From assembly GCA_048884785.1 (NCBI GenBank), contig JBHLQM010000062.1, forward strand, positions 1 to 21,174: 21,174 nt of DNA, given 5' to 3'. The notes beneath the pieces were generated by a model. It saw only the letters and a list, made by a program, of their open reading frames with translations, was not told the origin of the DNA and did not search any database. This document shows, one piece after another, positions 333 to 1,894 of the stretch (positions within the stretch are counted from its first letter, which is position 1; each line of letters starts with the position of its first letter). The position numbers were made by a program, and so were the translations under genes. Source of the stretch: Candidatus Thorarchaeota archaeon (GTDB lineage Archaea; Asgardarchaeota; Thorarchaeia; Thorarchaeales; Thorarchaeaceae).

Positions 333-440
333 TCAAATCACGATGGCCGTTACGCTGGTTAGCTTACATTTTAGCATTATGCAAAATCATAGCACGCTCA
401 AAATTGGTTATTACAAAAAGGAATGGATGATAGACAATCG

Positions 441-511
441 CAAAAGAAAGATGACCGGTGAGTCAATCCGCCCTCAGAGTTCGAGTGATCGGAGAAACTC
501 ACCTTTGTCAT
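441..511 (-). terminator. Long imperfect stem-loop plus U-rich tract downstream of the Lys-rich micro-ORF
   Basis: Minus strand ATGAC-AAA-GGTGAGT-TTC-TCCG-ATCA-CTC-GAACTCT-GAG-GG-CGGA-TTG-ACTCACC-G-GTCAT (511-451), followed by CTTTCTTTTG. Starts 7 nt after the TAA at 519. Confidence 0.55.
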
Positions 512-518
512 ATTGGTG

Positions 519-614
519 TTACTTTTTCTTTGGTTTTTCAGTAGCTTTCGCTTCTTTCTTTGCACCTGCTTTCTTTGCAGGTGGTTTCTTTGTTGTTGGT
601 TTTTTACTACCCAT
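519..614 (-). CDS. 31-aa Lys/Ala/Pro-rich basic micropeptide (histone H1 tail-like composition)
   Basis: MGSKKPTTKKPPAKKAGAKKEAKATEKPKKK* (13 K, 2 E). SD-like AGGTG at 626-622. TATA-like TTTTAAT at 670-664. Downstream hairpin and U tract. Confidence 0.75.
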   Translation of the reverse strand: MGSKKPTTKKPPAKKAGAKKEAKATEKPKKK

Positions 615-711
615 CAGTTTACACCTAAGTGATATTGATTACAATCTGATTCTTAGTCAGGTGATTAAAACAGACAGATGGTAGAATCATGAGAATTGAA
701 TCAGACTAGTA

Positions 712-795
712 CTAGAAATCATCATCGTCCCAGTCATCATCATCGTCCCAATCTTCATCATCATCTTCCCAGGTATCTTCATCATCGAAGACCAT
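712..795 (-). CDS. 27-aa polyacidic Trp-punctuated micropeptide
   Basis: MVFDDEDTWEDDDEDWDDDDDWDDDDF* (16 D, 3 E, 3 W, no basic residue). Strong archaeal SD GAGGTGA at 806-800, 4 nt before ATG. ATATAAA at about 867-861. GAT/GAC/GAA codons are mixed, so this is not a pure DNA microsatellite. Confidence 0.8.
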   Translation of the reverse strand: MVFDDEDTWEDDDEDWDDDDDWDDDDF

Positions 796-950
796 TTTTT
801 CACCTCTCGGCAAGCGTAGTCAAATCAAATGTAAAATGTGTCTAACGCACAATATCAAGTTTATATGGCTTAATTCGAAAAAGTAAGGCATATAACGATG
901 TTAGAATTGAATAGAATCTCTATCAACTTTTTTTATGAGGCTTAAGATGA

Positions 951-976
951 TTTAATTGTCACAATAAAGATTTTAA
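951..976 (+). promoter_or_regulatory. Palindrome next to a TATA-like box upstream of the 280-aa gene
   Basis: TTTA-ATTGT-C-ACAAT-AAA (951-968) followed by TTTTAA (971-976), in the divergent intergenic region 796-1051. Confidence 0.3.
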
Positions 977-1051
977 CGGTTATAGCTATCGCACATGTGT
1001 GTCACTCTGGTTTTCGTGTGAGTATATCAAGTCAACAATCAAACTCGAATT

Positions 1052-1894
1052 ATGGATGGTTTAATCATCGTGAACGAGGTGAATACTGAGAGTATCAATC
1101 TTGCTCAGATTGATTTGAAAGGCACATCAAAATTAGTTATTCTTCTTGGGACGAAAGAAGGCACCAAAGGAATTTCGAAGAAACTACGTCAATATGATGA
1201 TTTAGTGCGTGTTGGAAAAGGTCTCTTTATTACAGGCTCAAACGACGGGGCTTACACAGAACTCTTGCGCTCATTGCCTACATTATCCTTCATTCGAACC
1301 CGTGAGATTCCTGGTATAAAAGCCCGACTTGATGATCCACACGCAGACCGAACCTACTCGATAGTTTCCTACAGCTTCAATAATCCCACTCCAGGACAGA
1401 AAAAGCGTGTCGAAAGACTCCTAAGAAGGTCTATGGGTATTCGCATAAGACCTGGTGTTCTTCTATTCCCTGTGTTGCGGGCTAGAGAACGCAGGAAAGT
1501 TCTTGACTATGAAAAAGGGCATTCATTACTAGACTCCAAGGAATTCAATAACCAGTTGAAAACTATAGGCGCGTTCTCCATGCGGTGGTCTCGACTTCGA
1601 TTAGCTGAATCCAAAGATTCGATACAAATCAGAGAGGCAATTGAGAGGACTCTAAATAGAGATCTTTTGTCAATTGAATCCAAACTCCAGCAAATTCGTG
1701 AGATGAGCAAGAATCCCTTGACACCTTCAGATATTCTTAGGAAACAATCTCTTGTCGTATTGCGACGGTATCGCAAACTCAAATTCAAATGGGTTCTTGC
1801 TAAGACCCTCTGGTACTATAATGCTGAGAAACCCTTGAAACGAATCTACAATCTTGGGTTGAATACAAAATATATGATTGATAACCGAGATTAG
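1052..1894 (+). CDS. Basic hypothetical protein with a ChrB-N/PaaX-like (Cas2/VapD-type ferredoxin fold) segment and helical C-terminus
   Basis: 280-aa ORF. Segment YSIVSYSFNNPTPGQKKRVERLLRRSMGIRIRPGVLLFP resembles the ChrB N-terminal/PaaX middle pattern (hydrophobic strand, R..v.R.L...G...l...V...P). Family call is by eye only. Confidence 0.55.
   Translation: MDGLIIVNEVNTESINLAQIDLKGTSKLVILLGTKEGTKGISKKLRQYDDLVRVGKGLFITGSNDGAYTELLRSLPTLSFIRTREIPGIKARLDDPHADRTYSIVSYSFNNPTPGQKKRVERLLRRSMGIRIRPGVLLFPVLRARERRKVLDYEKGHSLLDSKEFNNQLKTIGAFSMRWSRLRLAESKDSIQIREAIERTLNRDLLSIESKLQQIREMSKNPLTPSDILRKQSLVVLRRYRKLKFKWVLAKTLWYYNAEKPLKRIYNLGLNTKYMIDNRD

What the first reader, a model, noticed from the sequence alone, without database searches (positions are those of the whole stretch)
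712..795. 27-aa W-acidic micropeptide resembling Sem1/DSS1 and the WASP acidic motif
Seen: MVFDDEDTWEDDDEDWDDDDDWDDDDF with a GAGGTGA SD, Trp at positions 9, 16 and 22 and a terminal Phe in an Asp/Glu matrix. Established: eukaryotic Sem1/DSS1, a disordered subunit of the proteasome lid and other PCI complexes, has the core WEDNWDDD...DDF. WASP-family proteins end in an acidic Trp motif (DEDEDDEWDD) that binds Arp2/3. Inference: in an Asgard host this could be an unannotated proteasome- or actin-associated peptide, or an ssDNA mimic. Low complexity makes convergence quite possible.
Basis: partly seen in the sequence, partly recalled or inferred. Interest (0 to 1): 0.72.

Follow-up and report, generated by a model that had tools for sequence, protein, structure and literature searches.

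The report
Conserved acidic tryptophan micro-gene, Thorarchaeota
The 27-codon frame is a real, unannotated and conserved gene of an Asgard (Thorarchaeota) archaeon for a tiny Asp/Glu/Trp peptide; it sits beside a very basic orphan protein and a lysine-rich micro-gene, which it probably binds, and nothing shows it to be a relative of Sem1/DSS1 or WASP.

Summary
Window 795..712 (minus strand) encodes MVFDDEDTWEDDDEDWDDDDDWDDDDF, with GAGGTGA 4 nt before the ATG.

It is a real gene. 48 of 50 related loci carry such a frame with the same ribosome-binding site, and the other two stop at contig ends. Against three close orthologues there are 19 synonymous changes and 3 conservative D/E changes.

The frame lies about 180-320 nt upstream of, and divergent from, a 280-residue orphan protein (pI 10.2-11.4, net +16 to +36). 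That protein is modelled as two ferredoxin-like domains plus a three-helix bundle. A lysine-rich micro-gene (window 614..519) follows in many relatives. The three genes also occur in other Asgard families, once as a same-strand operon. Acidic/lysine peptide pairs exist in Asgard genomes without the basic protein.

The Sem1/DSS1 and WASP readings are not supported. There is no PF05160 match, no match to PDB sequences, and similarity to DSS1 is no better than shuffled peptides (z = -0.07). That test has little power.

Best explanation, inferred only: a disordered polyanion that binds and neutralises its basic neighbours, perhaps as a nucleic-acid mimic.

No paper describing it was found. This scan has noted the same module before on other genomes. 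The contig looks mis-binned.

The parts
712..795 (-). Acidic Trp micro-gene: 27 codons plus TAG stop, net charge -19
   Evidence: Orthologues in 48 of 50 related loci. 19 synonymous versus 3 conservative changes against L004, L005 and L007.
800..806 (-). Shine-Dalgarno-like GAGGTGA, 4 nt before the ATG
   Evidence: The same motif sits 4-8 nt before the start in orthologues of many genera. The anti-SD could not be checked, because the bin holds no 16S 3' end.
519..614 (-). Lysine-rich micro-gene MGSKKPTTKKPPAKKAGAKKEAKATEKPKKK (31 aa), 97 nt downstream of the acidic gene. An AGGTG lies at 626..622.
   Evidence: Relatives (MAKKKPAKK...KKKK) lie 64-104 nt after the acidic gene in 25 of 30 close loci. 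Its nucleotide identity to L004/L005 is 0.98/0.96, against 0.82-0.83 for the spacer.
1052..1894 (+). Divergent 280-aa orphan protein, pI 10.3, net +25. Modelled as two ferredoxin-like domains plus a three-helix bundle.
   Evidence: No Pfam or NCBIfam match. Homologues in 60 of 86 genomes of the family. Models with pLDDT 86 and 89. Fold searches. Charge.
796..1051 (.). Divergent intergenic region. It holds a strongly conserved block at about 952..1014 near the 280-aa gene and a TATA-like ATATAAA at 866..860 upstream of the acidic gene. Both promoter roles are inferred.
   Evidence: Alignment of six orthologous regions.

Best explanation
Window 795..712 is a translated micro-gene. Its product is a 27-residue, presumably disordered polyanion (net -19) studded with Trp and ending in an aromatic residue.

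It most likely works by binding basic partners encoded next to it: the Arg/Lys-rich 280-aa protein (net +25) and, where present, the lysine-rich micropeptide. Binding would use salt bridges plus Trp-Arg/Lys cation-pi contacts. This would neutralise the partners, chaperone them, or compete with nucleic acid for their basic surfaces, in the manner of a nucleic-acid mimic or anti-factor.

Shown: the gene is real, conserved and under purifying selection, and it is genomically linked to the two basic partners. Inferred: disorder, physical binding, and the consequence of binding.
For: - Coding: conserved SD and start, conserved N-terminal M-x-F-D-D-E-D-x-W in close kin, and 30 of 40 peptides ending in Trp. 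19 synonymous versus 3 D/E changes.
- Linkage: a divergent acidic frame lies 180-320 nt from the 280-aa gene in 48 of 50 loci across 13 genera.
- The same trio occurs in other Asgard families. In L082-L085 it is a same-strand operon (basic protein, then Lys peptide, then acidic peptide); in L056 and L057 it is divergent.
- Genera g4 and g16 gave no match for either the basic gene or the acidic motif.
- Charge: peptides are net -14 to -26 (median -19); basic proteins are net +16 to +36 with pI 10.2-11.4. 88 of 90 representative clusters of the basic family have pI above 9.5.
- Nearly all invariant residues of the basic protein are Lys/Arg, plus one Trp.
- In family f18, acidic peptides carry a Lys-rich N-terminal half. 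This is a natural joining of the two charge types.
Against: - No binding was or could be tested here, and no multimer prediction was available.
- The net charges of peptide and neighbouring protein do not co-vary (Spearman rho 0.15, p 0.36).
- None of the 90 representative clusters of the basic family carries an acidic run, so there is no Rosetta-stone fusion with that protein.
- The link is not absolute. G062 (99% complete) and G066 keep an acidic frame but have no detectable 280-aa homologue.
- Five genomes of f18, f9 and f5 with acidic/Lys pairs lack the basic protein.
- The Lys peptide is missing from most loci of the more distant genera.
- The basic protein's fold is generic, so its own function is unknown.
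Confidence: 0.5

Rival explanations
1. It is an archaeal homologue or functional forerunner of Sem1/DSS1, an acidic Trp-containing disordered subunit that glues PCI-domain complexes such as the proteasome lid.
For: Shared composition and a W-acidic core ending in an aromatic residue, as the sequence shows directly. The host is an Asgard archaeon. The genome has two weak PCI-profile matches elsewhere.
Against: - PF05160 gives no match at E<=10 in the six-frame genome search or on 40 family members.
- The family profile finds nothing among PDB sequences at E<=10.
- The peptide is 27 aa against about 70-90 aa, and lacks the second half of DSS1.
- The PCI matches are not linked to it, and the PCI profile also matches in control prokaryotes.
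- The conserved neighbours are unrelated to proteasome, TREX-2 or BRCA2.
- Caveat: the shuffle test also fails to recognise distant true family members, so remote homology cannot be excluded by sequence.
Confidence: 0.04
2. It is a WASP-like acidic motif peptide that engages actin-related proteins.
For: An acidic run with Trp resembles the A region of VCA domains (from general knowledge). Asgard archaea have actin-family proteins (PMC9433394).
Against: - There is no WH2 or central amphipathic helix, and the peptide is free-standing, not the tail of a multidomain protein (sequence).
- No actin or ARP gene lies in the 21-kb window or appeared among the neighbouring genes that were profiled.
Confidence: 0.02
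3. The frame acts in cis as a regulatory leader ORF. Translating the Asp/Glu run and the terminal Trp-stop would stall or destabilise the ribosome and so control the downstream Lys micro-gene or the divergent gene. The peptide itself would have no function of its own.
For: - Runs of acidic residues and Trp-containing leader peptides such as MgtL and TnaC are known translational sensors in bacteria (general knowledge).
- The frame has a strong SD, 30 of 40 members end in Trp just before the stop, and a short gene often follows 64-104 nt downstream.
Against: - The downstream gene is not conserved. The Lys gene is absent in most loci of distant genera, and it lies upstream of the acidic gene in L082-L085 and L072/L073.
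- In the C1 copy, what follows looked by eye like a hairpin, not a gene (not tested).
- The conserved partner is on the opposite strand, so it cannot be controlled by attenuation.
- Length and Trp spacing vary while charge is kept. That suits a binding polyanion better than a precise arrest sequence.
Confidence: 0.12
4. The acidic peptide mainly partners the lysine-rich micropeptide as a charge-matched pair (a storage, chaperone or condensate-forming polyelectrolyte complex). On this reading the 280-aa protein is a lineage-specific addition or regulator.
For: - Acidic-Trp and Lys-rich micro-genes are adjacent, in either order, in several Asgard families that lack any detectable 280-aa homologue.
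- f18 peptides join both charge types in one chain.
- The Lys gene is more conserved than its flanks.
Against: - Within the window's own family the acidic gene stays with the 280-aa gene in loci of 12 of the 13 genera that have that gene; no locus of the thirteenth, g12, was fetched. The Lys gene was seen next to it in 26 of the 48 loci.
- The charges do not match one to one (-19 against about +11 to +13).
Confidence: 0.25
5. It is not a protein gene: either a chance frame in GAT-rich DNA or a C/D-box sRNA.
For: Sub-threshold Rfam C/D-box matches overlap 665..762 on the minus strand (24.8 bits against a gathering score of 36, E 0.086), because GAUGAUGA resembles a C box.
Against: - All the matches are below gathering score.
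- The CUGA 'D box' is changed in L004 (CGGA) and in L006/L007 (CUGC), and GAT-to-GAC changes break the C-box copies, while the reading frame, SD, start and stop are kept.
- The reversed-pattern control found nothing in 400 genomes.
Confidence: 0.03

Closest known systems
Prothymosin-alpha with the linker histone H1 tail (disordered high-affinity polyelectrolyte pair of eukaryotes; from general knowledge)
   Same: An extremely acidic partner and a Lys-rich partner with large opposite net charges. No folded domain is expected in either peptide. The suggested role is chaperoning or competing off a basic nucleic-acid binder.
   Different: The peptides here have 25-40 residues, are Trp-studded and Asp-rich, and are encoded as separate adjacent micro-genes in an archaeon. 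A folded Arg-rich 280-aa protein is the most constant neighbour. There is no sequence relationship, and binding is untested.
Sem1/DSS1 (Pfam PF05160)
   Same: A small acidic protein with Trp embedded in Asp/Glu and an aromatic residue after an acidic run. DSS1 is also proposed to mimic ssDNA.
   Different: No profile match. Similarity equals that of shuffled peptides. The peptide is a third of the length and has no linked PCI, BRCA2 or TREX-2 partners.
Acidic C-terminal tails ending in a hydrophobic or aromatic residue: bacterial SSB ...DDDIPF, archaeal/eukaryotic ribosomal stalk P1, eIF1A ...DDIDDI, alpha-tubulin ...EEY (from general knowledge)
   Same: An acidic run followed by a terminal aromatic residue with a free carboxylate, used as a docking peptide for basic pockets. 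In another Asgard family a PCNA carries just such a W-acidic tail.
   Different: Here the tail is a free-standing gene product rather than the end of a folded protein. It has several Trp, not one terminal anchor.
PaaX / Rv0674 and Cas2 (for the neighbouring 280-aa protein)
   Same: Foldseek ranks PaaX 8a39 (E 5.1e-4, prob 0.97) and Rv0674 3kfw (E 3.8e-3) first for the whole model. All share a ferredoxin-like domain followed by a helical domain.
   Different: TM-scores are only 0.24-0.32. At domain level Z is 4.8-5.3 for PaaX, Rv0674 and Cas2, which is within noise. The N-terminal domain is beta-alpha-beta-beta-alpha-beta, not a winged helix. There is no Pfam match.

Membership tests
Sem1/DSS1 (PF05160) | Matches the DSS1_SEM1 profile | tested here: not met
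   Six-frame search of the genome found no match at E<=10 (3 candidates scored). None of 40 peptides matched at E<=10. HMMER's composition filters may hide weak matches.
Sem1/DSS1 (PF05160) | Sequence similarity beyond shared composition | tested here: not met
   Score 53 against a shuffled mean of 53.5 (z -0.07). Over 40 peptides the median z is 0.41, with 3 of 40 below p 0.05. The test has low power: distant true family members also score z below 3.
Sem1/DSS1 (PF05160) | About 70-90 residues with two acidic Trp segments and a C-terminal helix | tested here: not met
   The peptides have 25-40 residues and are acidic throughout.
Sem1/DSS1 (PF05160) | Partners are PCI-domain complexes | not testable with these tools
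   Two weak PCI matches lie elsewhere in the genome (C27, C2), unlinked to the peptide. The PCI profile also matches in four control prokaryotes.
WASP-family VCA domain | WH2 (V) and central (C) helix precede the acidic Trp region at the end of a multidomain protein | tested here: not met
   The frame is free-standing with 27 codons. Only three residues precede the acidic run.
Disordered polyelectrolyte pair (prothymosin-alpha/H1 type) | Two partners with large opposite net charge | tested here: met
   Acidic peptides are net -14 to -26. By count from the printed sequence, the window's Lys peptide is about +11 (13 Lys, 2 Glu). The basic protein is net +16 to +36.
Disordered polyelectrolyte pair (prothymosin-alpha/H1 type) | Direct high-affinity binding while staying disordered | not testable with these tools
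   Needs peptides and protein at the bench, or a multimer prediction.
PaaX-like regulators (neighbouring protein) | N-terminal winged helix-turn-helix DNA-binding domain | tested here: not met
   The models show beta-alpha-beta-beta-alpha-beta at residues 27-82.
PaaX-like regulators / Cas2 (neighbouring protein) | Cas2-like ferredoxin domain followed by a helical domain, with clear structural similarity | tested here: inconclusive
   Foldseek gives PaaX E 5.1e-4 but TM 0.24. VIA gives Z 5.3 (PaaX), 5.1 (Cas2 8ia4) and 4.8 (Rv0674), no better than ACT, RAM or NikR domains.
C/D-box sRNA | Reaches an Rfam gathering score, with conserved C and D boxes | tested here: not met
   Best match 24.8 bits against 36. 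The D-box CUGA is not conserved in orthologues.
Leader-peptide attenuator | A conserved downstream gene on the same strand under its control | tested here: not met
   The downstream gene varies or is absent, and the order is reversed in other families.

The most novel reading that the evidence does not exclude
Asgard archaea possess a widespread, so far unannotated system of charge-matched micro-proteins. A Trp-studded polyanion and a polylysine peptide are joined in Thorarchaeota and some other lineages by an Arg-rich two-ferredoxin-domain protein. Together they would form disordered polyelectrolyte complexes that control access of basic proteins to DNA or RNA. This would be a prokaryotic counterpart, possibly a forerunner, of eukaryotic acidic chaperone/linker-histone or DSS1-type DNA-mimic systems.
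Probability: 0.2. Interest if true: 0.85.

Novelty: new variant of a known kind. Interest (0 to 1): 0.62.

Why it matters
Genes this short are missed by standard annotation; none of the eight peptides looked up is in a 15-billion-protein collection. Yet this one is conserved across genera with its expression signals and its neighbours.

[quoted passage not shown] Eukaryotes use this principle in chromatin chaperones and DNA mimics.

The parts are cheap to test: two synthesisable peptides, built-in Trp fluorescence and one soluble-looking 280-aa protein.

The case also warns against calling homology (here to Sem1/DSS1) from low-complexity resemblance.

Tried and rejected
- **Peptide as a search query.** A protein search of 41 relatives found only one orthologue and missed the second copy in the same assembly. 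I replaced it with synteny and a codon pattern.
- **Pfam and NCBIfam** on the peptide, the Lys peptide and the 280-aa protein gave nothing.
- **PDB sequence searches.** The peptide profile found nothing. The 280-aa profile found only coiled-coil noise.
- **The search for related loci.** The single-protein scan gave one locus, which supplied the taxon.
- **Fold searches.** The whole model returned lists dominated by three-helix bundles. The N-terminal 167 residues alone gave only generic ferredoxin-like matches with Z<=6.5. CorA cytosolic domains at Z about 9 are treated as common-arrangement matches.
- **Charge co-variation** between the peptide and the basic protein: none.
- **Fused forms.** None of the 90 representative clusters is fused.
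- **A fourth conserved component.** GNAT, cupin and MFS neighbours are shared only with the nearest kin.
- **'Duplicated pairs'.** The second acidic frames in L033, L046 and L050 lie between the basic gene and a CN_hydrolase gene, not beside a second basic gene.
- **'Two paralogues in one genome'.** The contig is probably mis-binned.
- **Literature.** No paper on these micro-genes was found.

Full report
**1. Observation**

GAGGTGA lies at 806..800, four bases before the ATG.

A second micro-frame follows 97 nt downstream on the same strand, at 614..519. It encodes the lysine-rich MGSKKPTTKKPPAKKAGAKKEAKATEKPKKK and is preceded by AGGTG. On the other side a 280-codon gene (1052..1894, plus strand) is transcribed divergently. 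It has no Pfam or NCBIfam match.

**2. Is it a gene?**

A six-frame scan of the whole assembly (3.6 Mb, 158 contigs) found only two short frames with at least 16 Asp/Glu in 20 residues. One is this frame. The other is at C1:27857-27934, with a TTG start eight bases after GAGGTG.

The 280-aa protein has homologues in 60 of 86 genomes of the same family, covering 13 of 16 genera. The second copy in this assembly lies beside the C1 frame.

I inspected 50 homologous loci. In 48, a 25-40-codon Asp/Glu/Trp frame lies on the opposite strand, 180-320 nt upstream of the basic gene. A (G)AGGTG(A) motif sits 4-8 nt before its ATG, TTG or GTG start. The other two loci stop at a contig end.

Close kin share M-x-F-D-D-E-D-x-W at the N terminus, and 30 of 40 aligned peptides end in Trp.

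Against three orthologues of equal length, the substitutions are:

| Orthologue | Synonymous | Nonsynonymous |
|---|---|---|
| L005 | 6 | 0 |
| L004 | 6 | 2 |
| L007 | 7 | 1 |

The three nonsynonymous changes are all D<->E. The flanking spacers are only 82-86% identical.

The codon pattern acid3-Trp-acid4 occurs in 198 of 400 genomes of the phylum. The same pattern read backwards occurs in none.

Sub-threshold C/D-box Rfam matches over 665..762 come from the GAUGA repeats. The supposed D box is not conserved in orthologues.

I conclude that this is a translated gene under purifying selection. None of the eight family peptides I looked up, as delimited here, is in a 15-billion-protein collection, so they are unannotated.

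**3. Host**

The only hit of the neighbouring protein in named genome records is 85% identical. It lies in a 'Candidatus Thorarchaeota archaeon' MAG. Protein-atlas clusters are also mainly Thorarchaeota. The 'Asgard host' claim stands.

One caution applies to the assembly:

- A transketolase on the same contig is 89% and 85% identical to genomes of another genus (g6), but only 65% identical to the bin's own genus.
- Every other genome has a single copy of the basic gene.
- The contig is therefore probably mis-binned. The two copies in this assembly are likely orthologues from two organisms, not paralogues.

**4. Neighbours**

*The 280-aa protein.*

- It is very basic in all 24 aligned members: pI 10.2-11.4, net +16 to +36.
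- Its invariant and nearly invariant residues are mostly Lys/Arg, plus one Trp.
- AlphaFold models are confident (pLDDT 86 for the whole protein, 89 for residues 20-186). They show two beta-alpha-beta-beta-alpha-beta domains and a three-helix bundle.
- Foldseek ranks PaaX (8a39, E 5.1e-4) and Rv0674 first, but TM-scores are only 0.24-0.32.
- At domain level the best Z-scores are 5-6.5. They are shared by ACT, RAM, NikR, Cas2 and PaaX domains.
- The fold is generic, there is no winged helix, and PaaX/Cas2 membership is inconclusive.
- Among 1.84 billion representative proteins only 90 clusters match. All are 101-295 aa except one marginal 444-aa hit (E 1.3e-4, pI 4.3). 88 have pI above 9.5, and none carries an acidic run.

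*The lysine-rich micro-gene.* It follows the acidic gene at 64-104 nt in most close loci but is rare in the more distant genera. It is more conserved than its flanks.

*Other neighbours.* GNAT, cupin and MFS genes are shared only with the nearest kin.

**5. Beyond the family**

Loci from other Asgard families show the same elements:

- In L082-L085 a homologue of the basic protein, a Lys peptide and an acidic Trp peptide lie in that order on one strand.
- In L056 and L057 the acidic frame is divergent from the homologue, as in the window.
- In family f18 and elsewhere, acidic-Trp and Lys-rich micro-genes are adjacent in either order. Five such genomes have no detectable homologue of the basic protein.
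- Many f18 acidic peptides carry a Lys-rich N-terminal half.

Some genomes break the link with the basic protein:

- G062 (99% complete) and G066 keep an acidic frame without the basic protein.
- Genus g5 has longer acidic frames after an unrelated 440-aa protein.

So the acidic peptide is the common element, and its basic companions vary.

**6.

- The DSS1_SEM1 profile finds nothing at E<=10 in the six-frame genome search or in 40 family members.
- The family profile finds nothing among PDB sequences at E<=10. From my own knowledge, not checked here, those include DSS1/Sem1 chains.
Across 40 peptides the median z is 0.41.
- The same test gives z below 3 for distant true family members. It therefore removes support for the DSS1 reading but cannot exclude remote homology.
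- The peptide is a third of DSS1's length.
- Two weak PCI matches lie elsewhere in the genome and are not linked.
- The WASP comparison fails on architecture: no V or C region, and the peptide is not a tail.

The 'ssDNA mimic' thought remains compatible with the basic neighbours.

**7. Mechanism**

The best-supported reading is a disordered polyanion that binds the adjacent basic products. It would neutralise or chaperone them, or compete with nucleic acid for them.

Support comes from conserved linkage through rearrangements, complementary charge, Arg- and Trp-rich conserved surfaces, and natural Lys/acid joining.

Weaknesses:

- No binding test was possible.
- Charge does not co-vary between the peptide and the basic protein (rho 0.15, p 0.36).
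- No fused form with the basic protein exists.
- Some genomes lack one partner.

A cis-acting leader role is less likely. The same-strand downstream gene is not conserved, and the constant partner is on the opposite strand.

**8. Prior knowledge**

Literature searches found no description of these micro-genes.

Notes of this scan show that other agents reached similar readings on other genomes. I had formed my reading before looking at them. I re-tested the main claims here and add these qualifications:

- The family is not confined to Thorarchaeota.
- The link to the basic protein is not absolute.
- The contig is probably mis-binned.
- The 'Cas2/PaaX-like' label is weak.

Noticed in passing
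window 1-21174 (contig C62): The contig looks mis-binned. Its transketolase (7605..9608) is 89% and 85% identical to two genomes of another genus, on the same contig as their copy of the 280-aa gene. It is only 65% identical to genomes of the bin's nominal genus. Every other genome has one copy of the 280-aa gene; this bin has two.
   Followed up: partly
L066, L067, L069, L074, L076, L078, L080 (family f18 genomes): PCNA homologues of about 300 aa (PF00705, E 3.5e-15 for L069:646-1557) end in a Trp-acidic tail such as ...AYADEDWDEDEDEDEDWDEDEE. The same kind of motif is fused to a replication clamp in another Asgard family.
   Followed up: partly
G000:C33:27459-27881 (+), locus L086: A 140-residue open frame in the same assembly ends in ...KKKTRLVDDDWEEEDDE. 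It has no Pfam match.
   Followed up: partly
window 952-1014: A block of about 60 nt (plus strand ...CACAATAAAGATTTTAACGGTTATAGCTATCGC...GTGTCACTCTGGTTTT) is nearly invariant among six orthologous intergenic regions that otherwise diverge. It lies 40-100 nt before the 280-aa gene, which has no obvious SD. It could be a promoter, an operator or a structured leader.
   Followed up: no
L033, L045, L046, L050 (C1-type loci): In these loci the basic gene is followed by a carbon-nitrogen hydrolase gene (PF00795). In L033, L046 and L050 a second acidic Trp frame sits between the two genes on the opposite strand.
   Followed up: partly
L068, L070-L073, L075, L077, L079 (family f18): Micro-frames such as MKPPKKKKKVEVEEEEEEWNEEEWDDDEDEAN join a Lys-rich head to an acidic Trp tail. 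They lie beside separate Lys-rich micro-frames. L072/L073 hold two such pairs in tandem.
   Followed up: no
L087-L089 (genus g5) and L090-L091 (G062, G066): Acidic Trp frames exist without any detectable 280-aa homologue. In g5 they follow a 440-aa frame, which in L088 has NosD/beta-helix/PKD matches. In G062/G066 a frame ...HFDDEDLWEEEDWDDDEWEDDDDW, with a probable TTG start, lies between a metallo-beta-lactamase gene and a GNAT gene.
   Followed up: partly
window 665-762 (-): Three sub-threshold C/D-box snoRNA matches (best 24.8 bits against 36). They are caused by Asp codons (GAUGAUGA) imitating a C box, which is a likely source of false sRNA calls in such genes.
   Followed up: yes
window 343-684 (+): A 113-codon frame lies on the opposite strand over the lysine-rich micro-gene. 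It is Phe/Leu-rich and is probably the shadow of the AAG/AAA-rich gene rather than a gene itself.
   Followed up: no
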